61,290 nucleotides of DNA from a virus (IMGVR_UViG_3300017788_000026:1-61290); one strand, 5' to 3'; counted from the first letter of the stretch, positions 19,020 to 31,971 are shown. Translations and numbers: made by a program. Notes: generated by a model not told the origin, from the sequence alone.

Positions 19020-19021
19020 TG

Positions 19022-19396
19022 TTATCCTGTCAACAGCTCCAAGCCGCATATACCGAAAGTTAAGGTTCCTACCACTCCTACAGACATGGTTACGTATGTA
19101 CCGAATGTTCTCTTCTTCTTAAAGAACGCGTATACGCCGCCTCTAAAGGTAGCAAGCGACAGGATGGCCCACAGCAGGCACGTCACCCCGCACAATACGT
19201 CATGGTAAGGGCTTGTTTCTGTAGAAACGATGATAAGCGAAGATATAATGGTAAACCCAAACAGATAAAGCGGCGGACCGCTCTCGTCTTTTATCGTATC
19301 TGGCCCAAGAGTTAGCGCTTCCTTTAATGTCTTATAGAACAGCACACTGGTGCCTAGTACGCACACTATAAGGGTAGTTGTTTCTACGTCGGTCAT
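19022..19396 (-). CDS. Multi-pass membrane protein
   Basis: About 4 hydrophobic segments; GVTCLLWAIL...GGVYA. Confidence 0.7.
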   Translation of the reverse strand: MTDVETTTLIVCVLGTSVLFYKTLKEALTLGPDTIKDESGPPLYLFGFTIISSLIIVSTETSPYHDVLCGVTCLLWAILSLATFRGGVYAFFKKKRTFGTYVTMSVGVVGTLTFGICGLELLTG

Positions 19397-19602
19397 TTGC
19401 GTACCGCCCCTACTGTGTCCGAGAATAGAGCTATTGCTGCGAATAGAGTAACTATGCTAAATATTGTCACAAGAGCGTCGCCCGCATTTTGGCTAGACTT
19501 GCTGCGTGCATCACCAGCGAGGTAGGCTCCCACGACTGTCATAACTATACTGAATATACACAGCGCGGATAAGACCACCTTTGTCTCGGCTACACTACTC
19601 AT
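19393..19602 (-). CDS. 2-TM membrane protein
   Basis: Two hydrophobic segments, ATGA coupling. Confidence 0.65.
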   Translation of the reverse strand: MSSVAETKVVLSALCIFSIVMTVVGAYLAGDARSKSSQNAGDALVTIFSIVTLFAAIALFSDTVGAVRK

Positions 19603-19973
19603 TCTGGCGTTCCTGTAGCGACTACCCCGGCAAAACCAACAACGATCATACCTATTCCGTGTATTAGCAGTGTCTTTCTGTTCATGCCCTCAAGCTTTAG
19701 GGCCACAATAGCGCTGAATAACCCGACTAGTGAGCAGAAGAAGAAGCCTATGGCCAGCGAGCGTGCCTCTACAACTACGTCTATGGGAATTATTTGCACG
19801 TATATTAGGGGAACAGCATACAAGCCGCATCCTATTATCGCCTTGTTTACAAAAGGTCTCGCATCATCGTTCACTGCGCCTGCTGCTGAGGCGCTGATAA
19901 GGCTGGTTATTACGAAAACGGTCAGCGCTACAACCATCAGCGAAAATATACCGCCGAGTAGAAGGTCAATCAT
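19599..19973 (-). CDS. Multi-pass membrane protein
   Basis: About 4 hydrophobic segments. Confidence 0.7.
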   Translation of the reverse strand: MIDLLLGGIFSLMVVALTVFVITSLISASAAGAVNDDARPFVNKAIIGCGLYAVPLIYVQIIPIDVVVEARSLAIGFFFCSLVGLFSAIVALKLEGMNRKTLLIHGIGMIVVGFAGVVATGTPE

Positions 19974-20377
19974 AGCGGCCCAGCCACCACTTCGTTGGGT
20001 AGTGCCGCTATGAAAGTGAACAGGCCGACAGTTATGTAGAATATTCCCATAAGAACGAGATGCAGGAAAAGAGCGTGCCTGGCCCCGCCGGCTACCACTA
20101 GTATTACGCCGCCCATCACGAGTATGTGGGTTGACCCTATTTGCATAAGGATGTACTTAAACTCATCACCAACCGGAAGCAGGTACGTTGCTACTCCCAT
20201 GGTTGCAAGGTAAATACAGCAGAAGATGTTGACGTCTCCGGAGCGTGGTAGGTTACCGTCTTTTTGGGCTTCCACGGTTGCGGTAACCAATGATTGAATC
20301 TTAAAAAGGCCTACTAGAAGGCTTATAACGTATACCAGTAGAATAACATCATTGTCTCTGATCAAAACGCCTGTCAA
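19970..20377 (-). CDS. Multi-pass membrane protein
   Basis: About 4 hydrophobic segments; likely TTG start after GGAGA. Confidence 0.65.
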   Translation of the reverse strand: MTGVLIRDNDVILLVYVISLLVGLFKIQSLVTATVEAQKDGNLPRSGDVNIFCCIYLATMGVATYLLPVGDEFKYILMQIGSTHILVMGGVILVVAGGARHALFLHLVLMGIFYITVGLFTFIAALPNEVVAGPL

Positions 20378-20397
20378 AAGGTTTCTCCGTTGAGGAC

Positions 20398-20406
20398 TCT
20401 TATGAG
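20398..20406 (-). promoter_or_regulatory. Variant CATAAGA promoter-like motif
   Basis: CTCATAAGA upstream of membrane-gene block. Confidence 0.4.
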
Positions 20407-20479
20407 GCACACAGTCCAGTAGAGGACACAGATGGCGGCGCTGAACACCGCCCACATCGGTAACTCGGGTTGTTTCTTG

Positions 20480-20704
20480 TTAGGCACTAAATTGTATTTC
20501 GATCTGGCTAAAGGCGGCACGTTGCGCTGCTTCTTCAATCGTATTGGCTACAGGGAGTATATCAGCGTCATATAGCGGGTATGTTTCATTATTAAAGTAT
20601 TCCTCTAGGCGCTTCTCTAGGAATGTCTCTTTAGAAGGTGCGTAAAATGACTTGTCTATAAAACGCACCAGCTCTCGCCTAGCGTTCTGTTTGGGCGGCA
20701 ACAT
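20480..20704 (-). CDS. Microprotein, array B
   Basis: FIDKSFYAP. Confidence 0.6.
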   Translation of the reverse strand: MLPPKQNARRELVRFIDKSFYAPSKETFLEKRLEEYFNNETYPLYDADILPVANTIEEAAQRAAFSQIEIQFSA

Positions 20705-20921
20705 GTGGTTCCAACTCTACGATTATGTCCTTAATCAACCATACGTCCACTATATCAGATCGAGCTATTCTGGGCAGGCGGATCGGCGTTCCATAGGCGA
20801 TGTGTGTGTCATCTATGATGTAGAAGTCCTCAGGATAGTCGGGAACAAAACCCTCGTCGAAAAACAGGTCTATGATTTCATATATCTTATGACGCGTGTC
20901 TTCGCTTATTTTTCCCCCCAA
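20679..20921 (-). CDS. Microprotein, array B
   Basis: FDEGFVPD; likely TTG start. Confidence 0.6.
   Translation of the reverse strand: MGGKISEDTRHKIYEIIDLFFDEGFVPDYPEDFYIIDDTHIAYGTPIRLPRIARSDIVDVWLIKDIIVELEPHVAAQTER
20885..20893 (-). promoter_or_regulatory. GTCATAAGA motif (intragenic)
   Basis: GTCATAAGATATATG matches consensus. Confidence 0.45.
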
Positions 20922-21112
20922 TCCAAGCACTCTGTGTGTCCCGCCGATATTTCGACAATCTCCAGGGCCGCCGGCACCTCTACTACAAGAAAGCGCTCCA
21001 ATGCTGGATGAATGTGCATTTTCGATACAGCACATTCCGTTGGCGGTGTTTTTATAAATGCATTCATTATGTCTGTTACAATGTTCCCACGGCTCGCCAA
21101 CGTAAGCGGCAT
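20906..21112 (-). CDS. Microprotein, array B
   Basis: IMNAFIKTP. Confidence 0.6.
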   Translation of the reverse strand: MPLTLASRGNIVTDIMNAFIKTPPTECAVSKMHIHPALERFLVVEVPAALEIVEISAGHTECLDWGEK

Positions 21113-21354
21113 CACTCGCTCTCGCGTACAGATACTGTGGTTATAATACAATCAAGGAAGATGGCGGAAGCCACTCCTTCGCGCACGAACCAAGCAATGT
21201 TCGCACTGTGTAGGCTCTCTAAAGAGCGCCCCCCTCTTTTCTTTTTCGGATTGTATCTACTTGTGGCGGCCTCTGATATTACAAAGTACTTGTATAGAGA
21301 ATTGATAACAATGTTCTCGTTAGCTATCAAAACCTCGCGTTGGGAGCTCATCAT
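21112..21354 (-). CDS. Microprotein, array B
   Basis: LYKYFVIS. Confidence 0.6.
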   Translation of the reverse strand: MMSSQREVLIANENIVINSLYKYFVISEAATSRYNPKKKRGGRSLESLHSANIAWFVREGVASAIFLDCIITTVSVRESE

Positions 21355-21557
21355 TCGCCATAGTTATCGTTGAAGCCTACTATATCGACCCACGTTGGGA
21401 TAGTCGCATCAAACATCCTAGGTGCGAGGTCCTGCGGTATTGTTTTCATAAGGCTGATGACATGCTCTACCCGTCTTAGCGGTTGGTATTTTATGAATTG
21501 ACGATCTATCACAAAGATCAATATCTTTTCGGCTGTTCGAGTAGGTCTAAACCGCAT
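21351..21557 (-). CDS. Microprotein, array B
   Basis: IDRQFIKY. Confidence 0.6.
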   Translation of the reverse strand: MRFRPTRTAEKILIFVIDRQFIKYQPLRRVEHVISLMKTIPQDLAPRMFDATIPTWVDIVGFNDNYGE

Positions 21558-21792
21558 AGATGCGCTGCTTGGTTGGGTCTAGGTGGTTTTCCGCTGATAC
21601 ATAGATGCTGTCCGCCTCTGCAGCTTTTACTACCATCGACAGCTCGGCTCTCATAAATTTAAGCTGCAACCACAGTTCCTCACCAATGTTTGGTAGAACC
21701 GGCGGTGTTATAAGAAAGCTAGTTCTGATAAAGTGTTTTACGCATATCTGTCCAATAATATCAAATTGAGAGTTGAAAGAGTTAGTAAGCAT
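21547..21792 (-). CDS. Microprotein, array B
   Basis: CVKHFIRT. Confidence 0.6.
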   Translation of the reverse strand: MLTNSFNSQFDIIGQICVKHFIRTSFLITPPVLPNIGEELWLQLKFMRAELSMVVKAAEADSIYVSAENHLDPTKQRIYAV

Positions 21793-21798
21793 TGTCTT

Positions 21799-22005
21799 TT
21801 AGCATTCTAAATCCTCGTCAGCTATCCTCGTCTCCACTGAGACCAGTATGACGAATGCGTCGCGGTATCTATCCGGGGTTACCTTTTGGTACATATCATC
21901 TAAAACCTTATCGGATTCTATAAAAGCGTCGCCTATCTGGTCAATCAATGAGCGATGCCTGTCTAGTCTAGTTTCTTCAGCTGTCATTGTATCGGAACAT
22001 CCCAT
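21799..22005 (-). CDS. Microprotein, array B
   Basis: IGDAFIES. Confidence 0.6.
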   Translation of the reverse strand: MGCSDTMTAEETRLDRHRSLIDQIGDAFIESDKVLDDMYQKVTPDRYRDAFVILVSVETRIADEDLEC

Positions 22006-22175
22006 CTGTGGTGTCTGCCTATGTTTGCAAATATTTCCTGTCCCAGGAGGGCGCGAGCCCGCATCCGAATCTCTGGGACAGGCATATGTAGATCTGTGTA
22101 GTATATGAGGGTATCTGTAGTTAAAAACCCTTTTACCATATATATGGTCAAACTTACCTCAGCAGAGTAGCTCAT
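21984..22175 (-). CDS. Microprotein, array B
   Basis: MVKGFLTT. Confidence 0.6.
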   Translation of the reverse strand: MSYSAEVSLTIYMVKGFLTTDTLIYYTDLHMPVPEIRMRARALLGQEIFANIGRHHRWDVPIQ

Positions 22176-22356
22176 GTTCTAGGAGGTTCAGGTCTGTGGT
22201 TATGCGTTCTACGGATAGCATAGCCCGGGATACAGCCACTACTGAAGCACCAGTGCTCTCCATTAGAGAATAGAGTTTGGATAGTATCAGCGCTAGCTCA
22301 ATACCGTCATCTAGGAAAGACTCGTCTATTGAGTCGTGAAGGGATGTGTATCTCAT
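22159..22356 (-). CDS. Microprotein, array B
   Basis: IDESFLDD. Confidence 0.6.
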   Translation of the reverse strand: MRYTSLHDSIDESFLDDGIELALILSKLYSLMESTGASVVAVSRAMLSVERITTDLNLLEHELLC

Positions 22357-22568
22357 GGTGAGTCTGCTTGGTCTACTGCTCTATTGACATCACTGTGTAC
22401 ACCCAAATTACTGCCAATATCCATGAGGTTATGAAAAACGTTCGGGTACTTAATATAGAATAAGTACCTTTTTGTACTATCATGTACCATATCAGCTCCC
22501 GCCCACACATCCACAAAGTCGTGGTTGAGTACCTTCTCTAACGCTAACCTATCCACGGATATAATCAT
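22353..22568 (-). CDS. Microprotein, array B
   Basis: LNHDFVDV. Confidence 0.6.
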   Translation of the reverse strand: MIISVDRLALEKVLNHDFVDVWAGADMVHDSTKRYLFYIKYPNVFHNLMDIGSNLGVHSDVNRAVDQADSP

Positions 22569-22780
22569 GATACAACCGCGGTTCTTATGCCCATTATAGG
22601 TACGCGTCTAGTGTGCTCGCTGAGTATGGGGCCACAAACAGGACAATCGCTGTTTGCGAAGGACTTTGTTAGTATAATCTCGCGGGTTTGTTTGTCCCAC
22701 GTCACGTGAAAGAAATCACCCCTGTAGAATCTCTTTTCTACCACTTCGGTAATAATGTGATCAGAGAGATGGGTTGTCAT
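22565..22780 (-). CDS. Microprotein, array B
   Basis: VEKRFYRG; CPVC. Confidence 0.6.
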   Translation of the reverse strand: MTTHLSDHIITEVVEKRFYRGDFFHVTWDKQTREIILTKSFANSDCPVCGPILSEHTRRVPIMGIRTAVVS

Positions 22781-22801
22781 CTGTAAGTGGGTTGGGGTAC
22801 T

Positions 22802-23068
22802 CTAAGAGACCGAATCTTCTACGTAAGAAGGCTGGTTAGCTCTGTGAGGCATACGTATCCCATCCGGCGAAATGTCGCTCCACGCCGCCGCCTGCGCTCC
22901 GGAGCTAAGCCGACCCATAATTTCGAACCAGGCTCTTCTTGGGTAGCCGTGATGGCTGAGCTGTTCTACAAAGATATCTTTATAGATGTCTTGATCTACG
23001 AAGGTTTTTGCAACGCTTATTAGGATGCCTTCTCGCATTACAGCCTCGCGGTCTTTAACCCACCCCAA
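22802..23068 (-). CDS. Microprotein, array B
   Basis: VAKTFVDQ. Confidence 0.55.
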   Translation of the reverse strand: MGWVKDREAVMREGILISVAKTFVDQDIYKDIFVEQLSHHGYPRRAWFEIMGRLSSGAQAAAWSDISPDGIRMPHRANQPSYVEDSVS

Positions 23069-23291
23069 AGAAGACCATCGCGGTTTCTGGGCCTTTCAGT
23101 GCACCCATAAGGCTGGTTAGCTCTGTGCGGCTTCTTATATTATCCAGCACCTCGTAGGAGACCCAGGTACCAAGGCGCTTCTCTAATAAAGACTGAACCT
23201 CATCTCGGATAGATCGGTGCTCTACTATGAAAAGCTCCTTTCTCATCACGTTATCTGATAGCCACGTCCCTATGTCAGTGACATGTCTCAT
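23055..23291 (-). CDS. Microprotein, array B
   Basis: RKELFIVE. Confidence 0.6.
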   Translation of the reverse strand: MRHVTDIGTWLSDNVMRKELFIVEHRSIRDEVQSLLEKRLGTWVSYEVLDNIRSRTELTSLMGALKGPETAMVFFGVG

Positions 23292-23475
23292 TTAAGACCC
23301 TCTCCGTGACCCTGTCTAAGTTTATACCCTCGCGGTCAACAGACACGCCGAGCATATCCCAAATTTCGAGTATTCGTGCCGCGTATATTTGATTAACGGC
23401 TGTATCGAGCTCGGTGTACTGGCTTTTTATAAAACCCATATTTACTTTATGCGGGTAGGCTTTATCTAGGCCCAT
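23275..23475 (-). CDS. Microprotein, array B
   Basis: VNMGFIKS. Confidence 0.6.
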   Translation of the reverse strand: MGLDKAYPHKVNMGFIKSQYTELDTAVNQIYAARILEIWDMLGVSVDREGINLDRVTERVLNETCH

Positions 23476-23672
23476 AGGATAACAAGTCTCGTCTCTAGGT
23501 CTCTCACTGATCTGCGCTCAACGACTGTTTTAATGCTGTCAACTATTCTTATATCGCTCTGTCTGAGGTCACCTGGCATGCTAAAGTAAAGCTCATTTTC
23601 CTCGTCATACGGGTCAATGAAATACGGGTCTATGATTAAATCAGCTAAGGTCTTGTATTGGGGGTACTGCAT
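23466..23672 (-). CDS. Microprotein, array B
   Basis: IDPYFIDP. Confidence 0.6.
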   Translation of the reverse strand: MQYPQYKTLADLIIDPYFIDPYDEENELYFSMPGDLRQSDIRIVDSIKTVVERRSVRDLETRLVILWA

Positions 23673-23841
23673 TACGGGCGGCTCGTTCTATTAATTGTAC
23701 ATTTAAAGGAGTAAGGTCTAGTAGGATGCTAAGTTGACGCAGCGAGGTCGTTTTACAAACCGCTGCTATGTCGCATACTAGGTCGGTTTGATAACGCCAG
23801 GCGCTTATAAATCCCAGGTCTGATCTATGTATAGGGTTCAT
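23641..23841 (-). CDS. Microprotein, array B
   Basis: SDLGFISAW. Confidence 0.6.
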   Translation of the reverse strand: MNPIHRSDLGFISAWRYQTDLVCDIAAVCKTTSLRQLSILLDLTPLNVQLIERAARNAVPPIQDLS

Positions 23842-24065
23842 GTATTAAACACCTCCCTGCCTCTAAACTCCAAAATCTCAATAACTCGCCCAGAGGCGCT
23901 GTACATAGCCCACATGTCCATCACCTTACTTGGTCTACATATAGGCATATCGCCTATCGTTTCATCATGTAACTTCCATGGATGTATAAATTCTCTGCTA
24001 ATTGCTTCTTCTAGCCGGTTATAATCTGTGCGAGCCCCTCTAAAGGTCATCATGGATTCCTTCAA
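23838..24065 (-). CDS. Microprotein, array B
   Basis: ISREFIHPW. Confidence 0.6.
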   Translation of the reverse strand: MKESMMTFRGARTDYNRLEEAISREFIHPWKLHDETIGDMPICRPSKVMDMWAMYSASGRVIEILEFRGREVFNT

Positions 24066-24240
24066 CCTCTCTAACGCTCATAAACAAATCTATAGGATCG
24101 CAGGAATCTAGCATGTGATCCATTATCTCCGGGCGGGGGTGGGCTACACGCCAAATCGCGTAAGTGTGCTGAACGCGCCCGCTGTTAGTGTCGGTAAAAG
24201 ACCTTTGAATATAATCCAGCAGTTCCTTATTCGAGGACAT
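24040..24240 (-). CDS. Microprotein, array B
   Basis: IQRSFTDT. Confidence 0.6.
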   Translation of the reverse strand: MSSNKELLDYIQRSFTDTNSGRVQHTYAIWRVAHPRPEIMDHMLDSCDPIDLFMSVREVEGIHDDL

Positions 24241-24397
24241 CTGCTATATGCAAGTGGCCCGCACGAACGAGCCGAATTCTTTTTACATCAGCTGCATCAT
24301 CGATCATTTGGTCTATTTGCAGCATATAAGCGGCATACATCGTCCACGGCTCTAGGAAGCGGCTTGCTACAATATCATCTAGCTGTTGAAGGGTCAT
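24227..24397 (-). CDS. Microprotein, array B (56 aa, absent from ORF track)
   Basis: Hand translation MTLQQLDDIVASRFLEPW...ADVLE fills the gap and matches the family motif. Confidence 0.65.
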   Translation of the reverse strand: MTLQQLDDIVASRFLEPWTMYAAYMLQIDQMIDDAADVKRIRLVRAGHLHIADVLE

Positions 24398-24581
24398 CTA
24401 GTAGCTCTATTGACCACGTCCGTTCTGCTATAAAGAAAATGTGCTCAGATAGTGGCTGCATCAGGCCGTCTTTTCTGTATTTTACAAAATATGATTGGCC
24501 TTGGTTAGCCATATTTATGAATAGATGTGGGGACACGAAGTCCCTTTTTATGATGTCATTTATTTGTGTAAGGGGTATCAT
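24375..24581 (-). CDS. Microprotein, array B (clear paralog of 24556-24753)
   Basis: FVSPHLF...HIFFIAERTWSIELLDD. Confidence 0.7.
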   Translation of the reverse strand: MIPLTQINDIIKRDFVSPHLFINMANQGQSYFVKYRKDGLMQPLSEHIFFIAERTWSIELLDDPSTAR

Positions 24582-24753
24582 CTAACATCTCTGGTGCCCA
24601 TACACGGTGTGCCATAGAGAAAATGTGGTCAGCTAGATGATTTAGCAGTTCGTAGTTTATGCCTATTACAAACTCTTTTTGGTCTTGTCTAGTCATTCCT
24701 AGAAATAGATACGGGTCTAAAAACCCCAGGTTTTTTGCGTCAGGACAGTCCAA
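24556..24753 (-). CDS. Microprotein, array B (clear paralog of 24375-24581)
   Basis: FLDPYLF...HIFSMAHRVWAPEMLDD. Confidence 0.7.
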   Translation of the reverse strand: MDCPDAKNLGFLDPYLFLGMTRQDQKEFVIGINYELLNHLADHIFSMAHRVWAPEMLDDTPYTNK

Positions 24754-24982
24754 TATGCGCCTCTTCTGTATCTATTGACGACGTTGCCTCGGGGAGTAGG
24801 CTAATTAAAGTCATCATTATTTCCGTTGAGGGAAAAACACGGGAGCATAGGTTAGATATTTCTATATTCATTCTATGGACTGCATGCGCATGCACTATGT
24901 CCTTAGCACTTATTATTTTAGACTCCGGCTCAATAAAACTGATTTCGTACAGAATATTTCGCGTTCGGTTATTCACTGACAT
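24740..24982 (-). CDS. Microprotein, array B
   Basis: YEISFIEP. Confidence 0.6.
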   Translation of the reverse strand: MSVNNRTRNILYEISFIEPESKIISAKDIVHAHAVHRMNIEISNLCSRVFPSTEIMMTLISLLPEATSSIDTEEAHIGLS

Positions 24983-25212
24983 TGATCCAAAGCCTCTTCT
25001 ACAGCCTCTTCTAGACTATCTTCTAGATTATCGAGCACCTCAGCATAGCAGTCTGTAACGTATGCTGGCAGTATCTCTCCCTTTCCGAGAAAGCGGTACC
25101 ACTGCTCGGGTGGTATTTCTATACGTAGGAATCCTATAGTCAACTTAGTAAGATCAGTCTTCAGCTGGAGCCTCAATTTCGGTGCTTGCAAACACAACCG
25201 CATCCATTGCAT
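24973..25212 (-). CDS. Microprotein, array B
   Basis: LTIGFLRI. Confidence 0.55.
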   Translation of the reverse strand: MQWMRLCLQAPKLRLQLKTDLTKLTIGFLRIEIPPEQWYRFLGKGEILPAYVTDCYAEVLDNLEDSLEEAVEEALDQCQ

Positions 25213-25396
25213 AGGACATTATTATGGCTGGTTGGGCAGGAAACATGTTCGCAGGGTAGCACCCGGTTTCGCATATAACCTCGTTTTTCATCCAGAAAGA
25301 ATGAGCCTTATCAAAACCAAAGACTTCAGAAAACTCGCAGAGTATAATGTCTTTTTTAAGTTTAGGTATTAACGGCTTCATACCATGCGTCCACAA
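25154..25396 (-). CDS. Microprotein, array B
   Basis: ILCEFSEV. Confidence 0.55.
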   Translation of the reverse strand: MWTHGMKPLIPKLKKDIILCEFSEVFGFDKAHSFWMKNEVICETGCYPANMFPAQPAIIMSYAMDAVVFASTEIEAPAED

Positions 25397-25589
25397 AAAG
25401 GTGAGAGAGGTCTCTTTCGCGTGTCGATTGTGTTAAATCATAATCACTGCCCTTATACAGCGCGGCTAATTCTGATAGTTCTTTCACATAAACCCCCCGA
25501 AAAAACCCCGCGGTCGCTCGGTTTAGTAGCGCGCCGTGTTCGTTCTCGATTCGATAGTCAACTGTTATGTCGGTTTGCATATTGAGCAT
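25362..25589 (-). CDS. Microprotein, array B
   Basis: ATAGFFRG. Confidence 0.55.
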   Translation of the reverse strand: MLNMQTDITVDYRIENEHGALLNRATAGFFRGVYVKELSELAALYKGSDYDLTQSTRERDLSHLFVDAWYEAVNT

Positions 25590-25788
25590 AGTAGATCGCT
25601 GAGAGTACCCCTATATCAAGATCGGCATCTAGAACGCGGAACGGAGGCCTCCTAAACAGCTCTTGCGCGTACAGGTCTGTTATTTTGACATGCTCATCTA
25701 TAAGGCGGCGGTATTCCTGTATAAGGAAATTCGCGCCTATATGATTCGCTACCGAGACTATAGCCGTTGCTAGCTCGTCTAAGTCCAC
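25558..25788 (-). CDS. Microprotein, array B
   Basis: IGANFLIQ; likely GTG start. Confidence 0.55.
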   Translation of the reverse strand: MDLDELATAIVSVANHIGANFLIQEYRRLIDEHVKITDLYAQELFRRPPFRVLDADLDIGVLSAIYYAQYANRHNS

Positions 25789-25994
25789 TCGGCCTCTTCG
25801 TCGAGTAGTCGATCGAATGATACTGCGTCGGTAGCTCTGGACATGTCCCATCTCATAATAGCGAGCGTGTACCTAGTTCCGTAGGACAGCCTACTTTCAT
25901 GTGCCTGCTGTCCTACGTCACAGAACCTCGTCGGATCCAAGGTGTGTTTTTTGAACATCGTGTCAATCATGCACGCATGAGCGTAGTCCATCAT
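25779..25994 (-). CDS. Microprotein, array B
   Basis: IDTMFKKH. Confidence 0.55.
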   Translation of the reverse strand: MMDYAHACMIDTMFKKHTLDPTRFCDVGQQAHESRLSYGTRYTLAIMRWDMSRATDAVSFDRLLDEEAEWT

Positions 25995-26000
25995 AACGCA

Positions 26001-26420
26001 CTAGTCTACCCGCATACTTGTGTACAGGTCTTCAACAACTTCGTGGTTAAACCACATACTCGCCTGTCTGCGGGCGCCTTTGAAAAAAGTGACCTCCCAG
26101 AGGAGATCGCCGCACGGTATAGCATCGTTGGGCCCTAGTTTGAACCCGTTTATAGTTACAGCCCGGGCCTCCAACAAGCGCCGTCTCTCAGACATGGAGG
26201 CGTTGGATTCTTGTTGTGTGCTGGGCACGTGAGTGAGCCCTCTTAGGAATGCTAAGGCCGAGCCTTCGGCGAATAGTGGCGCGGCTTCAACAGCCCGTGC
26301 GCTTGATTGTAGTCTATCTAGCGCCTCTTCTTTTGTTTTAGCGCCCTTGATTTTTTTGAAGGCGGCGCCTAGCGCCTCCCGGGTGAAACCCATAGACTGT
26401 AGTTCTTCTCGTGTAAGCAC
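26001..26420 (-). CDS. Protein with S4-like RNA-binding motif
   Basis: SMSERRRLLEARAVTING resembles the S4 motif of the TyrRS C-terminus. Confidence 0.5.
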   Translation of the reverse strand: MLTREELQSMGFTREALGAAFKKIKGAKTKEEALDRLQSSARAVEAAPLFAEGSALAFLRGLTHVPSTQQESNASMSERRRLLEARAVTINGFKLGPNDAIPCGDLLWEVTFFKGARRQASMWFNHEVVEDLYTSMRVD

Positions 26421-26424
26421 GCGG

Positions 26425-26949
26425 TCAACGCTTCTTTGGTAGGTAGTCCTGTTCTATAAGGCAGATAATATTGTTTACAGTAGTGTGTGTTTCTTTATTG
26501 AGCGCCAGCGCATCATCTAGTAGGCTGTGAACGATACGCCTGTGTTCGTGCATATCATTACCGTTAGGTAGATGCTTGAGCCTCCACATAAAAGCATCCA
26601 AGCGGTCGCACAGCTTCAAAACCCGCTTCTCTTCGTCGGTGAGTTTGTCTTCTATATAACCGAAGCCCAAAGAAGCGCGGCCATTTTTCTCTATACCATC
26701 CACCATATTTTTTAGCTCAGGATGAGTTAGTTTCGTGGGCGTGCTTATGTCGCCAGTGAACCACTCTCCTAAGTCGTGTGTCAGCGCAAACAACAGCGCT
26801 TCTTTCGATATAGTGGGCATCAGTTGGACAGCTAATAAAGCTACGCGACATTGATGCCCTGCTATCGAATCATTTGAGTCACTTAAATCCGGATCGGTGT
26901 GCCATCTTTTTACAAAAGTGGCCAACCAGGTTCTGTACATTTTTGTCAT
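26425..26949 (-). CDS. HD-domain phosphohydrolase (YfbR-like nucleotidase family)
   Basis: VKRWH, SIAGHQ, LTHDLGE..TGDI.TP.K, KLCDRLDA. Confidence 0.85.
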   Translation of the reverse strand: MTKMYRTWLATFVKRWHTDPDLSDSNDSIAGHQCRVALLAVQLMPTISKEALLFALTHDLGEWFTGDISTPTKLTHPELKNMVDGIEKNGRASLGFGYIEDKLTDEEKRVLKLCDRLDAFMWRLKHLPNGNDMHEHRRIVHSLLDDALALNKETHTTVNNIICLIEQDYLPKKR

Positions 26950-27042
26950 TTTACCTTTTTATCTATACTTTCGTACGTTTGTCTGCCTGTCTATTATATG
27001 CTCTATAGCGATTTCCGCACCTTAGATACAACTGCTTTACTT

Positions 27043-27279
27043 TTAGCATTCCGCTTCAATGCTGAAATCTTCGAGGTCAGATAATACAGCAGCACCCTCT
27101 ATTAAGGTGCTTATTGATAAGAGCACGTCTAAGCCGACTAGTGTATATATCTTCGGTAGTCCATAATTCAGGTGGAGCATGTGTCTAGGACTACAAATAT
27201 AGCAGATCAGATCATTATTAGTCATCCCAGGCTCTTTCGCAATCAGCCACTCCAGGAATCCAGACAATATCAACAGCAT
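27043..27279 (-). CDS. Microprotein, array B (start probably at MTNND)
   Basis: ICYICSPRHM. Confidence 0.5.
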   Translation of the reverse strand: MLLILSGFLEWLIAKEPGMTNNDLICYICSPRHMLHLNYGLPKIYTLVGLDVLLSISTLIEGAAVLSDLEDFSIEAEC

Positions 27280-27427
27280 TAACTATTTCGTCTTCTAGCT
27301 CAAAACATTCGGACAAACCGAATAAACGGGAAGAATCGCGGCCTAGGTCGGCAAACCATACAGGCACTCTGTAGGCTATAAACCAGGTATATAGCGGGAA
27401 TTTCTCTAAAGGGCTACTAGGCTTCAC
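27218..27427 (-). CDS. Microprotein, array B
   Basis: LYTWFIAY. Confidence 0.55.
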   Translation of the reverse strand: MKPSSPLEKFPLYTWFIAYRVPVWFADLGRDSSRLFGLSECFELEDEIVNAVDIVWIPGVADCERAWDD

Positions 27428-27602
27428 TGCTTATTTCCGTTAGCCACCTGAGTAGCTGAAGGGAGGTGAGGGTTTCACGTAGATCAGTAAATAACGGGTC
27501 GGCGTAGTACGTGTCTATTAGAGGGAGGCCCTCATCCGGTACAGCGCTTAGAACAAATTTGTGTGTTAGCTCAAGTACAAACTCTGGCTTCGTACCGTCC
27601 AT
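27417..27602 (-). CDS. Microprotein, array B
   Basis: LTHKFVLS. Confidence 0.55.
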   Translation of the reverse strand: MDGTKPEFVLELTHKFVLSAVPDEGLPLIDTYYADPLFTDLRETLTSLQLLRWLTEISSEA

Positions 27603-27778
27603 ATAACGCCCTCAAGATCCCTGTCTATTTGTTCGGCCACCGGCTGTGTAATGCTTATCATGTAGGTCAGCACTTCTGCCCGTTCAGGACGCGCGTCATG
27701 ATCTATCCAGGAGGATACCCCTAGGTTGAGCTTGCTCGTACTAATAAAGAATGAGCAGATATCTAATGACGAAACCAT
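27566..27778 (-). CDS. Microprotein, array B
   Basis: ICSFFIST. Confidence 0.55.
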   Translation of the reverse strand: MVSSLDICSFFISTSKLNLGVSSWIDHDARPERAEVLTYMISITQPVAEQIDRDLEGVIWTVRSQSLYLS

Positions 27779-27779
27779 G

Positions 27780-28034
27780 TTATGGTCCTGTTGCTGCTAT
27801 GTAGTACGTGGTCCCTAGAATACGCGCTTCGTCTATTATACGGTATGTTTCGGTATCTATATCGCTTGAGAGCCCGGCCCACAGGTCGTCTACGGCTGCG
27901 GACGTGTCTGTGATGTTGGCTAACCAGTTAAAGCTCATGTCCACGAAGTGCCGCGGATATACACAGTATTCCACCCATTCTATTTTTTTATAAACCCTAG
28001 GATCATACATTTCTTGACTGGGTATAAACAACAC
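27780..28034 (-). CDS. Microprotein, array B
   Basis: YPRHFVDM. Confidence 0.55.
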   Translation of the reverse strand: MLFIPSQEMYDPRVYKKIEWVEYCVYPRHFVDMSFNWLANITDTSAAVDDLWAGLSSDIDTETYRIIDEARILGTTYYIAATGP

Positions 28035-28067
28035 CTTTTCCTCGCTTCAGTTGGTTCGCCTACTAGG

Positions 28068-28093
28068 AAAAAGAAGGAGCCGGCGCCCCTTCT
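28068..28093 (-). terminator. Intrinsic terminator
   Basis: AGAAGG-GGCGCCGGCT-CCTTCT followed by T tract on - strand. Confidence 0.55.
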
Positions 28094-28099
28094 GTGATC

Positions 28100-28378
28100 T
28101 CACCGATATCGGTGTCTTACCAACACCGGGTCGGCGGCTCGCTTCATCTCTTCGTAGTGTTTGTCACACAGCAGGATGCTCGGACTATGTTTTTTTCCCG
28201 TTGATGCGTAGAACGTCCAGCCAGAGCAACTTGAGGGCCCCTTAAACACGCATTGCTGTTGCCTGTACAGATACCAGGCCCAGATCAAGGTCACCTGGAT
28301 CAGAACACTTAGAGACAACCCAAAGATTGGGGCGCCCCATTTGGTGTGGCGAAAAGACACCTTAGCTTTGTTCTTCAT
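28100..28378 (-). CDS. 1-TM protein with Cys/His-rich tail
   Basis: Hydrophobic segment, then C..C...CDKH. Confidence 0.6.
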   Translation of the reverse strand: MKNKAKVSFRHTKWGAPIFGLSLSVLIQVTLIWAWYLYRQQQCVFKGPSSCSGWTFYASTGKKHSPSILLCDKHYEEMKRAADPVLVRHRYR

Positions 28379-28716
28379 GTGTCTTTCCGACGATCTTTTT
28401 GCGCGGCTTTTTCTGCTTCATGGCGGTGTTCTGAGCACGCCAACATCGTGAAATGGACGGGGGCTACCCATCCCCTGCAGCCCTTGCCCCAGCCTATGCA
28501 GCATTTGCTGCACTGCATGATGTAGATGAAGCACGTTGCGCCGATTCCAAAGAATACGGACGCTAGCAGCACATTAGCCTTGGCGGCGAGTGCTGCTATG
28601 AGCAGTAAGCCGGCTATTACAGCCGTGCTTACTATGAAGACGAGCAGAGTGAAGAATGCCTCTCTCAGTGCGTCTTCACTGCGCTGCGTTGAACTCTTTG
28701 TAGAATGTGATGACAT
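28375..28716 (-). CDS. 2-TM protein with Cys/His-rich tail
   Basis: Two hydrophobic segments, then CC...C...CSEH. Confidence 0.6.
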   Translation of the reverse strand: MSSHSTKSSTQRSEDALREAFFTLLVFIVSTAVIAGLLLIAALAAKANVLLASVFFGIGATCFIYIMQCSKCCIGWGKGCRGWVAPVHFTMLACSEHRHEAEKAAQKDRRKDT

Positions 28717-29122
28717 TCTTGATCCAGTTCTTGTTGAGCCCGTGCGGATCGTTTTCTGCGCCTACGGGACAGTACTTGTTCCCAAGGAAGGTGATGAAGT
28801 CTTCCTTGCAACCGCTTGCCACCCAGCGGTCGTAGTTCTTTTGAACGGTGGCGGCGCACCAACCAGCTTGTTTCCGGTAGGTGTTGGCTTTTTTGTTAAG
28901 GATGCCAAACTCCTTACCCGCACCGCCGTTTTCGGCGTAGCGTATAGCGGCAACCACAGGCCGCAGCAGGTCGCGCAACTCAGGACGAATGTTCTCCTGA
29001 ATCGCCTCCTCGAAGGCGGCGGCGTTCGCCGCGCCGTCTTTCTTCTCTATTGGTGACTGCCCGAACGACAGCCCTACCAATGATACGACCGCCAACAAGA
29101 CGGCCCATAATCTAGTACGCAT
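28676..29122 (-). CDS. Secreted lysozyme-like/glucosaminidase-type peptidoglycan hydrolase
   Basis: Signal peptide; AIRYAENG (catalytic Glu candidate); KYCPVGAENDPHGLNKNWIKNV; AAGGAG RBS. Confidence 0.7.
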   Translation of the reverse strand: MRTRLWAVLLAVVSLVGLSFGQSPIEKKDGAANAAAFEEAIQENIRPELRDLLRPVVAAIRYAENGGAGKEFGILNKKANTYRKQAGWCAATVQKNYDRWVASGCKEDFITFLGNKYCPVGAENDPHGLNKNWIKNVITFYKEFNAAQ

Positions 29123-29289
29123 GTGTGACTCCTTTTTGATAGGGGGACTTGCATATATCTTATGCCATATTTGTTAACGTATTTGAGTATAAAGTCAGAG
29201 AACTCTGAAGGCAGGCCCGGCACTATGAAGAGAGACATGTTTTTTCTAATAAGATCAAGAATAATATTGTTTGCTGTTTGCGGGTTCAT
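29074..29289 (-). CDS. Microprotein, array B
   Basis: NMSLFIVP. Confidence 0.5.
   Translation of the reverse strand: MNPQTANNIILDLIRKNMSLFIVPGLPSEFSDFILKYVNKYGIRYMQVPLSKRSHTCVLDYGPSCWRSYHW
29158..29186 (-). promoter_or_regulatory. GGCATAAGA promoter-like motif
   Basis: CAAATATGGCATAAGATATATG 36 nt before hydrolase start. Confidence 0.65.
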
Positions 29290-29290
29290 T

Positions 29291-29518
29291 TTATGACAGC
29301 ATCTCGTCTGACGCCCGTCCGTAGAATGGTAGCACAGGGGGTAGTCGGGGGTTCATGAGTGTATTGACAGAATCACGGACGAAATCGTAGCTCTCGCGTG
29401 ATAAATATAGGTGCGCAGTATTCTTTATTATGTTAGTGAATAGTGTTGTATGAATTTTGTCTAGGCCAGAACATCTTTCCAATAATAAGACGAGCTCTTC
29501 AGTGTCACTCATAGTCAA
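29291..29518 (-). CDS. Microprotein, array B
   Basis: 75 aa, coupled. Confidence 0.55.
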   Translation of the reverse strand: MTMSDTEELVLLLERCSGLDKIHTTLFTNIIKNTAHLYLSRESYDFVRDSVNTLMNPRLPPVLPFYGRASDEMLS

Positions 29519-29738
29519 AAAATCGGGGCAGATCTGGGTGTCGCGGCTCCACGACCGGCGCCCTCACTGCGACCTGTTCACACACAAGATCCTCAATAAT
29601 GAGGTGATTGTAGTATCCCATTACAATACGAGGCACCCCTAGGTCGCTCCGGACAAGGCTACGCAATCTACCGGGTATCAGGCTCATATTTAAGAGCGCC
29701 GCCTCTAAGATGTGTTCTTGCTCTATAGGATGTGTCAT
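29505..29738 (-). CDS. Microprotein, array B
   Basis: LNMSLIPG resembles NMSLFIVPG of 29074-29289. Confidence 0.55.
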   Translation of the reverse strand: MTHPIEQEHILEAALLNMSLIPGRLRSLVRSDLGVPRIVMGYYNHLIIEDLVCEQVAVRAPVVEPRHPDLPRFFDYE

Positions 29739-29741
29739 TCT

Positions 29742-29960
29742 CTAAAGCTCGCTTCCGAAAGGATACACTGCTGCCGTAGCGACCGTGCGTCGATGAACAT
29801 TTGTTGCAATCTCATCCTCTATTCCGTCTTTTCTTGGATTTACATCATCTACTAAACGGGTTACTTTAACGTTAACAGCAAATATAGGGTAGCAGATCTG
29901 GTCTATAAGTAAGTCGTTGTCTATATGGTTCAGTGGTTTGTTGTGTGTTTCTACTGTCAC
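29742..29960 (-). CDS. Microprotein, array B
   Basis: ICYPIFAV. Confidence 0.55.
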   Translation of the reverse strand: MTVETHNKPLNHIDNDLLIDQICYPIFAVNVKVTRLVDDVNPRKDGIEDEIATNVHRRTVATAAVYPFGSEL

Positions 29961-30241
29961 AGAGGGAACAGCTCCTCTACTTCGCTGTCGTGTGGATTGA
30001 CAGGAAGGTCTAGTTCCATCTCAACCACTTCGTCTAGAATAAGGGTTCGGCACTCGACGATTTCTCGAAAAGAGCTTAAAAGTAGATTGTGCGGCGTGCC
30101 GTTTTGTGCGGCCGTACTGATTTGTCTATACGTGTCGCTAAGAGGGGCGCACGCCGCGGCCACGACGTTCTCTTTTTGCATCGCGCGGGCCAACATGATA
30201 TCGAAACTGTCCATGGTTTCCATCAATACCTTATGACGCAT
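29957..30241 (-). CDS. Microprotein, array B (real start probably downstream of the promoter motif)
   Basis: First codons overlap GTCATAAGG motif at 30229-30237. Confidence 0.55.
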   Translation of the reverse strand: MRHKVLMETMDSFDIMLARAMQKENVVAAACAPLSDTYRQISTAAQNGTPHNLLLSSFREIVECRTLILDEVVEMELDLPVNPHDSEVEELFPL

Positions 30242-30258
30242 TCTACTTCCATATTAGT

Positions 30259-30346
30259 AAAAAAAGAAGCCGTGCTGATAGGGGTGATATCAACAACGGC
30301 TTCCCCGGTAGGATGCATTAAGGCAACGGGCGCAAGTCCCGTTACC
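30259..30346 (-). terminator. Double hairpin ending in terminator
   Basis: GGTAACGGG/CCCGTTGCC then GAAGCCGT../..ACGGCTTC-T7; G-U wobbles fit - strand. Confidence 0.65.
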
Positions 30347-30355
30347 AAAATGATG

Positions 30356-30496
30356 CTACTTTTGAGGTACCGGCGCGGCGGGCTCCGGTAACCTCGGCGC
30401 TTCGGCCTGTTTGTGCTGTTCTAGCAGCGTGTCATTCACGGCAGCCAGACCAGCCAACGTAGCTTTTATAGCGATCAACAGCTCTTTATCTGTCAT
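30356..30496 (-). CDS. 46-aa hypothetical protein (not in ORF track)
   Basis: MTDKELLIAIKATLAGL...PVPQK. Confidence 0.5.
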   Translation of the reverse strand: MTDKELLIAIKATLAGLAAVNDTLLEQHKQAEAPRLPEPAAPVPQK

Positions 30497-30685: not shown

Positions 30686-31717
30686 ATGTTTAAAGTAGCT
30701 GGTGCGATAATTGACTGCTACGACGATCCTAAGTTCATGGTGAACTTTGAGGCGCACAAGTATTTAGGAAAGGAATTGCTGCCACCGGAAGATCTCGATA
30801 AGTTAGCGGACAATCAGTTTGCGCTAAAAATAACGGGATCCGGTCCGACTGTCAGACGTTACCCGGTCTACAACCAATGGATAACTAAGGTGTCCTGCGC
30901 CTATTTTTTAGATAAGAAGGACGGACTACCTGCTGAAATGATCAAAGCGGCTAGCTACGGGTTGGTTAACGCGTGTAAGCGTTATCAGCTCGGTATCCCT
31001 ACCGGGCTAGAGGCCGAGAAAGTTGGTTCTATAACAACGAGCCTAAATAAGGTCGCTTCCTATCCTGCCATTAAGGCAGATGATGAGCTAGCTAAGGCCT
31101 TGGCTAAAAAAGCTGAGGCTGTGTTGTATAAGATGACCCCTGTTGACCGTGTTCTATTAGCCAATGAATTGCATAAAGTAGCGGCCACCCAGTACTCGGA
31201 AGCTCTTAGCGAATATGTGGTTGACGGCTATAACCCTAATCTGGCCAAAGAGATACAGTCGAGACTCATTCTGATTAAATCTGCTTCTGATCAGAATACG
31301 GCCTACCTGGCTTCTGCGGTAGAGCGTCTATTGGCTGATAAGGACACGATGCACCCCCTTGAGTTCGCTACAGCCTTAAGTGATATAGACAAACAGGCTG
31401 GGTTAAAGGATCGGTACAAGAAAGGCGCGGGCGGCGGTATAAAAGACGCCTTTAGTGCGACCCTGGGCGGAAAGGGCGCTAAGGATAAAGATGTTCCTAT
31501 GGAGCACGGCTCTCCAGTTAATGGCGCTCCTGCGGAGGCCGGCGAGCCGGTTACTAAAGAAGCCTCTGAAAAAATGACTGTACTTGAGCACCTGACTAGC
31601 CTATCAAAAACATACCCAAGAAATTCTGGGGAGTTTGTGAAGGCGGCTAGTTGGCCGGTACCGACTGAGTACGGTAAAACCTACACATCGGCATGGAAGG
31701 CTTATTTCAAATCATGA
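30686..31717 (+). CDS. Probable head/scaffold protein with repeated KxA motifs
   Basis: KVA, KAA, KVA, KKA, KVA, KSA, KQA, KEA, KAA. Confidence 0.55.
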   Translation: MFKVAGAIIDCYDDPKFMVNFEAHKYLGKELLPPEDLDKLADNQFALKITGSGPTVRRYPVYNQWITKVSCAYFLDKKDGLPAEMIKAASYGLVNACKRYQLGIPTGLEAEKVGSITTSLNKVASYPAIKADDELAKALAKKAEAVLYKMTPVDRVLLANELHKVAATQYSEALSEYVVDGYNPNLAKEIQSRLILIKSASDQNTAYLASAVERLLADKDTMHPLEFATALSDIDKQAGLKDRYKKGAGGGIKDAFSATLGGKGAKDKDVPMEHGSPVNGAPAEAGEPVTKEASEKMTVLEHLTSLSKTYPRNSGEFVKAASWPVPTEYGKTYTSAWKAYFKS

Positions 31718-31971
31718 ACTTCCAAGAAGCCTTTTTTGATGAGTTAGAGAAGATTGCTGCTAGCAGAAGCGATAACTGGGAAGCATTGAGAAATTCTTCA
31801 TTAAAGAACACTCATATGCTCAATAAGCCGACTACAGGGCGATCAAGTAGACTCTCAATAGAATCTGCGGCGCGGCGATCTATCGGACCCCGCCCTAATG
31901 TTCGCCAACCAGTTCGCCCCAGCTCTGTTATACGAAATGTCAGGATGATGCCTAAACAAGGAGTATCATGA
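31714..31971 (+). CDS. Leader-family basic protein
   Basis: MNFQEAFFDELEKIA. Confidence 0.75.
   Translation: MNFQEAFFDELEKIAASRSDNWEALRNSSLKNTHMLNKPTTGRSSRLSIESAARRSIGPRPNVRQPVRPSSVIRNVRMMPKQGVS

What the first reader, a model, noticed from the sequence alone, without database searches (positions are those of the whole stretch)
20480..30241. Tandem array of about 37 diverged microprotein genes (array B)
Seen: 27 consecutive - strand ORFs of about 56-90 aa from 20480-25994, plus two runs of five (27043-28034, 29074-30241), nearly all overlapping or abutting. Most have a hydrophobic-x-x-x-F-[IVL] motif about 10-25 residues in (IKRDFVSP, VASRFLEP, ISREFIHP, IDRQFIK, IGDAFIE, IDESFLD, IMNAFIK). 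A hand-found 56-aa ORF filling the main gap carries the same motif. Inference: one small fold amplified by repeated tandem duplication and diversified, possibly a library of anti-defence or host-binding variants, or interchangeable partners of one complex.
Basis: partly seen in the sequence, partly recalled or inferred. Interest (0 to 1): 0.85.

Follow-up and report, generated by a model that had tools for sequence, protein, structure and literature searches.

The report
Phage array of motif-sharing microprotein genes
An uncultured freshwater phage carries 27 back-to-back tiny genes, most of which share one short N-terminal helix motif, so they look like a home-grown, fast-diverging gene family whose function is unknown.

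Summary
On the minus strand, 20480-25994 is covered 99.5% by 27 abutting ORFs of 56-118 aa. Shuffled sequence gives 30% coverage, 54% at most. The two further runs of five ORFs are also there.

The motif is real in the main block. [ILVM]-x3-F-[ILVFY] within residues 5-30 occurs in 17 of 27 ORFs, against 2.2 expected. An unbiased scan of three-position patterns finds it as the top pattern, far above 109 shuffles. It occurs in 11 of 228 small ORFs of five related phages. F codons are mixed TTT/TTC, so the signal is at protein level.

The motif is not significant in the ten extra ORFs (3 of 10).

"One fold, amplified" is only partly supported:
- For: unit spacing is regular (204 ± 25 nt), the distance from F to the C-terminus is 51 ± 5.5 aa, one adjacent pair is clearly paralogous, and two AlphaFold2 models show the same helix, break, long helix layout.
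- Against: profile comparisons do no better than shuffles.

No homologues were found anywhere searched, and relatives lack the array.

Best reading: a lineage-specific tandem expansion of a roughly 70-aa acidic helical protein inside a variable accessory island. Function (host takeover or anti-defence binding) is inferred only.

The parts
20480..25994 (-). Main array: 27 abutting or overlapping small ORFs. Stop-to-stop spacing is 203.8 ± 25.1 nt.
25779..25994 (-). 71 aa. No strict motif; near-motif MIDTMFKK.
25558..25851 (-). 97 aa. The pattern starts at residue 38 (IGANFL), outside the 5-30 window. It overlaps the upstream ORF by 73 nt, so an internal start is possible (inference).
25362..25589 (-). 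75 aa. No N-terminal motif. A motif-like LSHLFVDAW lies near the C-terminus and resembles the N-terminal motif of 22353..22568.
25154..25396 (-). 80 aa, no strict motif.
24973..25212 (-). 79 aa, strict motif, F28.
24740..24982 (-). 80 aa, near-motif ISFIEP.
24556..24753 (-). 65 aa. Paralogue of 24375..24581 (43% identity over 49 aa). Near-motif LGFLDPYLF.
24375..24581 (-). 68 aa, strict motif, F15. AlphaFold2 model: helices 4-14 and 18-61, pLDDT 69.
24227..24397 (-). 56 aa, strict motif, F14. AlphaFold2 model: helices 3-13, 17-45 and 51-55, pLDDT 85.
24040..24240 (-). 66 aa, near-motif YIQRSFTD.
23838..24065 (-). 75 aa, strict motif, F26.
23641..23841 (-). 66 aa, near-motif LGFISAW.
23466..23672 (-). 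68 aa, strict motif, F18.
23275..23475 (-). 66 aa, strict motif, F15.
23055..23291 (-). 78 aa, near-motif KELFIVE. Holds one copy of an exact 19-nt repeat (23109-23127).
22802..23068 (-). 88 aa, strict motif, F23. Holds the other copy of the 19-nt repeat (22828-22846).
22565..22780 (-). 71 aa, strict motif, F18.
22353..22568 (-). 71 aa, strict motif, F18. A full HMMER scan found no credible homologue.
22159..22356 (-). 65 aa, strict motif, F14.
21984..22175 (-). 63 aa, strict motif, F17.
21799..22005 (-). 68 aa, strict motif, F28.
21547..21792 (-). 81 aa, strict motif, F26.
21351..21557 (-). 68 aa, strict motif, F21.
21112..21354 (-). 80 aa, strict motif, F24.
20906..21151 (-). 81 aa (TTG start), strict motif, F32.
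20679..21035 (-). 118 aa by the longest-ORF rule. The pattern starts at residue 54 (IIDLFF). It overlaps the upstream ORF by 130 nt, so an internal start is likely (inference).
20480..20704 (-). 74 aa, strict motif, F20. Last gene of the array.
27043..28034 (-). Run of five small acidic ORFs (61-84 aa). Membership of the motif family is not shown.
29074..30241 (-). Run of five small ORFs (71-94 aa). Membership of the motif family is not shown.
26425..26949 (-). HD-domain, YfbR-like 5'-deoxynucleotidase. It is the only gene in the island with a family name.
28676..29122 (-). 148-aa protein with a hydrophobic N-terminus. It is the only one of 46 island ORFs with a match in the five relatives (78% identity in G002).
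28072..28093 (-). Terminator-like hairpin followed by a T-run, just upstream of the 28034 run. It may separate transcription units (inference).
18621..30496 (-). The whole minus-strand accessory island, lying between the conserved plus-strand genes 13003..18579 and 30686..31717.

Best explanation
The window is about a third of a roughly 190-kb freshwater phage that encodes its own fused beta-beta' RNA polymerase. Between two conserved plus-strand genes sits an 11.9-kb minus-strand island of accessory genes.

The core of the island, 20480-25994, is a run of 27 real short protein genes. About 17-20 of them, all between 20480 and 25212, are copies of one ancestral unit of roughly 200 bp. That unit was multiplied in place by tandem duplication and then diverged so fast that only the hydrophobic core of the first helix is still recognisable.

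The surviving motif is L-x-[DE]-x-[IVL]-x-[KRD]-x-F-[IVL]-x-[P/D/S/T]. The F lies about 51 residues from the C-terminus.

Each product is a mostly acidic, soluble protein of about 70 aa. It is predicted to be a short N-terminal helix, a break at F-h-x-P, and a long helix.

Inferred, not shown: the proteins are made early or as accessory factors, and each binds a different host or phage target (host takeover or counter-defence). In that reading the conserved helix holds the small fold together and the variable long helix carries specificity.
For: Coding:
- 99.5% minus-strand ORF coverage, against at most 54% in 200 shuffles.
- Codon score above that of spurious ORFs, p 4e-9.
- AT skew of -0.07 to -0.10 across the block, as expected for minus-strand genes.

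Motif:
- 17 of 27 against 2.19 ± 1.39 in shuffles.
- Top pattern of an unbiased scan, 9.5 against a shuffle maximum of 6.46 in 109 shuffles.
- Rare in real small ORFs elsewhere: 11 of 228 in five relatives, 0 of 25 elsewhere in the window, 2 of 10 in the other small-gene array.
- Position -8, which the regex did not select, is hydrophobic in 14 of 21 aligned instances.
- F codons split 10 TTC and 11 TTT. The NTA codons match genome-wide usage (ATA is the main Ile codon in large genes too). So the signal is at protein level, not DNA level.

Duplication:
- The adjacent pair 24556/24375 has E 9e-12 and z 17.8.
- Weaker links join the central neighbours: z 4.6, 4.0 and 3.2.
- Spacing is 203.8 ± 25.1 nt, and F to C-terminus is 50.9 ± 5.5 aa, n = 17.
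- The syntenic slot in relatives G004 and G005 holds no minus-strand genes. In G001 it holds a different 3.8-kb set. This points to growth within this lineage.

Fold:
- The two AlphaFold2 models agree: H3-13/H17-45 at pLDDT 85, and H4-14/H18-61 at pLDDT 69.

Composition and context:
- 17 of 27 have pI below 6.
- An HD-domain nucleotidase lies in the same island.
Against: Family-wide homology is not demonstrable:
- One significant BLASTP pair among 46 ORFs.
- hhalign of the two halves gives probability 0.06 and score 6.7, inside the shuffled range 5.1-8.2.
- Leave-one-out HMMs reach p <= 0.05 for only 7 of 27.
- An iterative HMM from the pair adds nothing.
- A plain Gibbs sampler did not separate real from shuffled sets, 365 against 363 ± 5.7 bits.
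- The position-free pattern scan exceeds shuffles only narrowly, 7.0 against a maximum of 6.98.
- MAFFT's 92% F column is weak evidence, because shuffled sets gave columns up to 100%.

Selection and coding strength:
- The paralogue pair has pN 0.352 and pS 0.330, dN/dS about 1.09 over 49 codons. Neutral drift would give the same figure.
- The codon score is well below that of large genes, 0.013 against 0.165.
- No clear Shine-Dalgarno sequences stand before the starts.

Structure: model pTM is low, 0.32 and 0.40, and the fold searches found nothing with E below 4.

No orthologues, population variants or functional data were available.
Confidence: 0.5

Rival explanations
1. The small genes are unrelated in origin. 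They share a convergent N-terminal tag: a short amphipathic docking or targeting helix, read by one common partner such as a phage chaperone, the packaging or ejection machinery, a protease, or the phage polymerase.
For: Only about 10 residues are shared, and everything else is undetectably similar. The same phage clearly does use an N-terminal tag on another set of proteins: MNFxxAFFDELxK on 9 plus-strand proteins. So N-terminal tagging is a habit of this lineage.
Against: - The F to C-terminus distance is uniform (50.9 ± 5.5 aa) and so is the gene spacing (CV 0.12). Unrelated cargo proteins would not be expected to show this.
- One pair is a true paralogue.
- The motif lies inside a confidently predicted helix (first 10 residues pLDDT 90), not in a disordered tail.
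- It sits 14-32 residues in, not at the extreme N-terminus.
- The HMM of the MNF tag hits no array ORF among its best 70 hits.
Confidence: 0.2
2. This is an ordinary cluster of unrelated early ORFan genes. The motif is only the generic i, i+4, i+8 hydrophobic periodicity of small helical proteins and carries no family or functional meaning.
For: Dense runs of small unnamed genes are common in phages. The motif is what an amphipathic helix looks like. Profile methods see no family.
Against: Real small ORFs used as controls rarely have it: 11 of 228 in relatives and 0 of 25 elsewhere in the window, against 17 of 27 here. Draws of 27 small ORFs from relatives gave a maximum statistic of at most 6.89 without position windows. 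The real set reaches 9.5 when position is included. The invariant residue is specifically F, and it sits at a fixed distance from the C-terminus.
Confidence: 0.15
3. Most of these ORFs are not translated. The region would then be non-coding or decaying DNA that stays open by chance or for an RNA-level reason.
For: - dN/dS is about 1.09 in the one paralogue pair.
- The codon score is below that of large genes.
- There are no homologues.
- No obvious ribosome-binding sites are present.
Against: - 99.5% ORF coverage on one strand, against at most 54% in shuffles.
- The codon score is clearly above that of spurious ORFs.
- The motif is conserved at amino-acid level with mixed synonymous codons.
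- There are no Rfam families or tRNAs and no DNA tandem repeat.
Confidence: 0.03

Closest known systems
Lineage-specific expansions of one small domain in large phages, e.g. the roughly 35 zinc-ribbon copies of Bacillus phage G (Iyer et al. 2021, PMC7824862; passages read)
   Same: Tens of copies of a small protein within one large phage genome. They are absent from relatives and their function is unknown.
   Different: There, every copy carries a recognisable domain (a zinc ribbon). Here only about 10 residues are shared, profile methods fail, only 1 of 27 has a CxxC, and the copies form a single uninterrupted head-to-tail run.
Segmental ('accordion') amplification of anti-defence loci in phages (PMC13096335; title and abstract seen in the listing only)
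   Same: Tandem amplification of small accessory genes in a phage genome. This is a possible route to arrays like this one.
   Different: Those amplifications are recent, near-identical copies that arise under selection. Here there is no DNA-level tandem repeat, and the closest pair is only 65% identical in DNA. No link to defence was tested.
Host-takeover or early-gene modules of small ORFan genes in large lytic phages, e.g. the SPO1 host-takeover module and the T4 and T5 early regions (recalled, no call)
   Same: Dense one-strand runs of small, mostly acidic, unnamed genes that vary between relatives.
   Different: As I recall them, those modules are not built of one repeated unit and share no common motif.
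The MNFxxAFFDELxK N-terminal tag family of this same phage lineage
   Same: A short N-terminal hydrophobic helix motif containing F-F/h-D/E, shared by many otherwise dissimilar proteins of one phage.
   Different: That tag sits at residues 1-15, lies on plus-strand proteins of 61-310 aa among virion-type genes, and is conserved in relative G001. Its HMM does not hit array B.

Membership tests
Any named protein family (Pfam-A, PHROGs, NCBIfam, PDB sequences) | A significant profile match for at least one member | tested here: not met
   - PHROGs: 1 weak hit (E 0.0083) among the 22 members of A1, and 0 for 14 further array ORFs.
- Pfam: 0 of 22 and 0 of the 10 extra ORFs.
- NCBIfam: 0 of 25.
- PDB profile search: best E 0.31.
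- Not every ORF was scanned in every library.
   - For: the shared motif, one clear pair, and a slight excess of Smith-Waterman z scores (mean 0.35; 10% above 2).
- Against: the hhalign halves equal the shuffled controls, leave-one-out recovers 7 of 27, and iteration does not grow the family.
   Only 2 of 27 members were modelled. Both show an N-terminal helix, a break at the motif, and a long helix, but pTM is 0.32 and 0.40. The ESM Atlas model of one of them has pLDDT 0.41.
   The motif occurs in 3 of 10 against 0.89 expected, and 107 of 2000 shuffles reach that. There are no BLASTP links to the main block with E below 0.1.
MNFxxAFFDELxK-tagged proteins of this phage | A match to the tag HMM at the N-terminus | tested here: not met
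   No array-B ORF appears among the 70 best hits. The seeds score E 1e-6 to 2e-9.
Zinc-ribbon expansions as in Bacillus phage G | Paired CxxC metal ligands in each copy | tested here: not met
   Reading the 27 sequences, only 22565..22780 has a single CPVC.
Capsid-targeting-sequence proteins of the T4 internal-protein type (features recalled) | The tag at the extreme N-terminus, followed by a prohead-protease cleavage site, with genes next to head genes | not tested
   The motif lies 14-32 residues in and the genes are on the strand opposite the virion-type genes. Cleavage and packaging cannot be tested here.
RNA-polymerase-encoding Caudovirales lineage 'mReC' (host genome, not the array; PMC7481178, passages read) | A tailed-phage genome encoding beta and beta' recognisable by cellular RNAP models | tested here: met
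   The 2358-aa ORF hits the Rpb2_6, Rpb1_2, Rpb1_5 and other Pfam models (E down to 5e-46). A large terminase is also present. Placement inside the published clade by phylogeny was not tested.

The most novel reading that the evidence does not exclude
The array is a combinatorial adaptor library. One conserved N-terminal helix (L-x-[DE]-x-I-x-[KR]-x-F-[IVL]-x-P) plugs about 20 different 50-residue 'heads' into a single common partner. That partner could be the phage's own fused beta-beta' RNA polymerase or a host hub protein. The phage would then carry a diversified, rapidly evolving (dN/dS about 1) set of specificity or decoy modules, made by in-place duplication.
Probability: 0.1. Interest if true: 0.8.

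Novelty: new member of a known kind. Interest (0 to 1): 0.45.

Why it matters
If the reading is right, this is a clean natural example of a phage building a private multigene family. About 20 copies of a 70-aa unit lie in one uninterrupted run and have diverged to the edge of detectability, while keeping one helix core.

It gives a compact test bed for how fast small phage proteins diversify after duplication, and for which few residues suffice to keep a microprotein fold or docking site. Members as short as 56 aa are easy to synthesise.

It also shows that the slot between two conserved genes of this RNA-polymerase-encoding phage lineage is a hotspot for accessory genes.

The practical limits are real. 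The host is unknown. No relative carries the array. No expression data were found. Function therefore remains a guess.

Tried and rejected
Homologue searches that found nothing beyond the window's own proteins:
- megablast and blastn against phage records.
- The search for related loci in viral contigs with the HD protein, with 24375..24581 and with the pair alignment.
- The search for related loci in metagenome contigs with 24375..24581.
- Word-indexed searches with profile A1 and with 24375..24581.
- A full HMMER scan of 1.84 billion representatives with 22353..22568.

That last scan returned two long repeat proteins at E 4e-5 and 3e-4. One is an NB-ARC/TPR protein. The other is a subtilase with 48-aa repeats. 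An HMM of the 12 repeats scores the query only E 0.063 in a 4092-ORF set, and a decoy scores better. I rejected these hits as scores inflated by repeats.

The ESM Atlas gave no lead (best 0.78). Foldseek against the PDB and BFVD gave nothing with E below 4.

Orthologues for dN/dS: tblastn of 46 island ORFs against five fetched relatives hit only 28676..29122. No between-phage dN/dS was therefore possible.

Public runs: two freshwater DNA runs hold the stretch with zero differences, and either may be the source of this DNA. So there are no population variants. No RNA holder was listed.

Complex prediction with two copies of 24227..24397 gave no verdict.

Readings considered and rejected:
- A DNA-level explanation of the motif. 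Synonymous codons are mixed and there is no tandem DNA repeat.
- A stop-codon recoding that would fuse the ORFs.
- A link to the MNF tag.
- Membership of the other small-gene array at 4558-6956 (2 of 10).

Weak or failed tests:
- The first Gibbs script timed out.
- The second Gibbs script had no power.
- MAFFT's near-invariant F column is not evidence by itself.
- The sigma-70 promoter scan was at chance, 17 found against 19.5 expected.

The 144,691-base contig that also carries these proteins could therefore not be fetched. Supplements of the papers were not opened.

Full report
**What the window is.** The window is a whole IMG/VR virus record of 61,290 bases, judged 32% complete. It encodes a large terminase. 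[quoted passage not shown] Terminase relatives in IMG/VR include a complete 193,018-base genome with terminal repeats, G004. The full genome is therefore probably near 190 kb. A lineage of tailed phages that encode beta and beta' has been described from metagenomes (PMC7481178, passages read). Two freshwater metagenome runs hold the studied stretch with no differences, and either may be its source.

**The observation: ORF layout.** The 56-aa ORF is 24227..24397. ORFs of at least 55 aa cover 99.5% of the minus strand of the main block. In 200 dinucleotide shuffles the best strand averaged 30% and reached 54% at most. Junctions are tight, with gaps from -130 to +21 nt and many of -4 to -32.

Frames change from gene to gene and all three stop codons are used. 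No stop recoding could join the ORFs. Codon usage of the 37 ORFs scores 0.013 per codon. This lies between spurious ORFs inside large genes (-0.125, p 4e-9) and large genes (0.165). In one search all 46 ORFs scored best in their own frame, but that test penalises stops in the other frames and is not independent evidence. I take the genes as real, with uncertain start codons. Two long overlaps, of 130 and 73 nt, suggest internal starts.

**The observation: the motif.** Residue shuffles give 2.19 ± 1.39, and 0 of 2000 reach 17.

Because the pattern was chosen by eye, I ran an exhaustive scan of all three-position patterns over 17 residue classes. With no position restriction the same pattern comes out on top (20 of 27, expected 6.7, -log10 p 7.0). 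Shuffles come close, however: the maximum was 5.81 in 30 and 6.98 in 104. Draws of 27 small ORFs from relatives reached 6.89 in 77 draws. When the scan may also choose an N-terminal or a C-terminal window, the real set reaches 9.5 for the same pattern in the first 30 residues (17 of 27, expected 3.1). The 109 shuffles averaged 4.90, sd 0.55, maximum 6.46.

Real small ORFs are the better control:
- 11 of 228 in five relatives.
- 0 of 25 elsewhere in the window.
- 2 of 10 in the other small-gene run at 4558-6956.

Aligned on the F, position -8 is also hydrophobic in 14 of 21 instances, and +3 is often P, S or T. The F codon is TTC 10 times and TTT 11 times. The frequent NTA codons reflect genome-wide usage. 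The signal is therefore in the protein, not the DNA. The ten ORFs of the two extra runs do not carry it above chance (107 of 2000 shuffles reach 3 of 10).

**Is it one family?** The evidence is split.

For common descent:
- The adjacent genes 24556..24753 and 24375..24581 are 43% identical over 49 aa (E 9e-12; z 17.8).
- Their central neighbours show weaker links (z 4.6, 4.0 and 3.2) and share the extended form F-h-x-P-[WYH].
- Stop-to-stop spacing is 203.8 ± 25.1 nt.
- In the 17 strict members the F lies 50.9 ± 5.5 residues from the C-terminus.
- None of the five relatives has a run of this kind. The only run of seven or more small same-strand genes found in them has seven genes.

Against:
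- No other pair is significant by BLASTP.
- Leave-one-out HMMs built on blind MAFFT alignments beat shuffles at p <= 0.05 for only 7 of 27, and at p <= 0.01 for 3 of 27.
- hhalign of odd against even members scores 6.7 over five columns, inside the range of 20 shuffled controls.
- An HMM iterated from the paralogue pair recruits nothing.
- MAFFT puts 92% of 25 members' F in one column, but shuffled sets produced columns up to 100%, so I give that no weight.

Between the two paralogues pN is 0.352 and pS is 0.330, giving dN/dS of about 1.09 over 49 codons. That fits rapid diversification, and equally fits relaxed constraint.

**Structure.** AlphaFold2 with the family alignment gave the following:
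- For 24375..24581: helices 4-14 and 18-61, pLDDT 69, pTM 0.32.
- For 24227..24397: helices 3-13, 17-45 and 51-55, pLDDT 85, pTM 0.40.

In both, the motif forms the first helix and the chain breaks at F-h-x-P. The pattern h(-8), h(-4), F(0), h(+1) lies on one helix face, which is what a packing core looks like (inference). Fold searches found nothing meaningful. Only two members were modelled, so a shared fold is suggested, not shown.

**Context.** The island 18621-30496 lies between the 1858-aa gene and the 343-aa gene. Both have homologues in G001, G004 and G005. In G004 and G005 that slot has no minus-strand genes. In G001 it holds a different set of about 3.8 kb. Of 46 island ORFs only the 148-aa 28676..29122 has a match in a relative.

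The only named gene in the island is an HD-domain YfbR-like nucleotidase. Five membrane-type ORFs follow the array. Terminator-like hairpins stand at 28093-28072 and 19284-19267 on the minus strand. The array may therefore be one long transcription unit (inference). Of the 27 products, 17 have pI below 6.

**What it most likely is and does.** I read the main block as a lineage-specific tandem expansion of a helical microprotein of about 70 aa inside a variable accessory island. Divergence has been so fast that only the first helix core survives.

Shown: dense coding, the motif, the regular unit, and one duplication. Inferred: common descent of all motif bearers and the helical fold. Guessed by analogy with small acidic early phage proteins: binding of host or phage targets for takeover or counter-defence. 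No data here test the function.

The main rival is that unrelated genes carry a convergent docking or targeting helix. It is kept alive by the second, unrelated N-terminal tag family in this phage. The uniform size and the paralogue pair argue against it.

**Comparison and novelty.** Expansions of one small domain within a large phage are known, for example the roughly 35 zinc ribbons in Bacillus phage G (PMC7824862, passages read). Tandem amplification of accessory loci is also known (PMC13096335, listing and abstract only). This array is a new, homologue-free example of that kind. It is unusual for being one uninterrupted run and for how little sequence is retained.

My three literature searches found no description of this family. 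That is weak evidence of absence, since sequences cannot be searched as text.

Noticed in passing
window 42593-49669 (+): A single 2358-aa ORF fuses RNA polymerase beta and beta', with strong Pfam hits (Rpb2_6 at E 5e-46). A LAGLIDADG domain lies at residues 901-987. The G001 homologue ORF is 2029 aa, so the insert may be an intein or a homing-endonuclease domain.
   Followed up: partly
window 31693-34443, 53032-53770, 54808-55740 (+); G001 18-33 kb: At least 9 plus-strand proteins of 61-310 aa begin with the same tag, MNFxxAFFDELxK[IL]A. At least 13 G001 ORFs match the tag HMM at E below 1e-3. This may be a virion-targeting or scaffold-binding N-terminal sequence. Three of four scanned had no PHROG family. 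The fourth, 53363..53770, hit seven, best E 8e-7, among them a tail-associated lysin and an endolysin family.
   Followed up: partly
Only 2 of 10 carry the array-B motif.
   Followed up: partly
window 22828-22846 and 23109-23127: An exact 19-nt repeat (22 of 23 nt identical) lies 281 nt apart in two adjacent array genes and is read in different frames. It is the only such pair in the window (0.02 expected). It may be a recombination scar or a small DNA/RNA element. It is unexplained.
   Followed up: partly
window 18621-20455 (-): Five consecutive strongly hydrophobic ORFs (69-161 aa; GRAVY 0.84-1.34 for the three measured) directly follow the array. No family hits reached curated cut-offs.
   Followed up: no
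window 28676-29122 (-) and G002 12647-13063: A 148-aa protein with a signal-peptide-like N-terminus is the only island ORF conserved in a relative (78% identity). It sits beside two cysteine-rich membrane ORFs (28375..28716 and 28100..28378). This could be a lysis-type or envelope-acting cassette.
   Followed up: no
window 25362-25589 (-): This ORF has the motif-like LSHLFVDAW near its C-terminus rather than its N-terminus. The stretch resembles the N-terminal motif of 22353..22568 (58% identity over 12 aa, z 4.9).
   Followed up: no
G001 15763-16358 (-): In the syntenic slot of relative G001, two adjacent ORFs of 105 and 97 aa share AEQFLG..PLPF near the N-terminus. This is another small local duplication in the same hotspot.
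   Followed up: no
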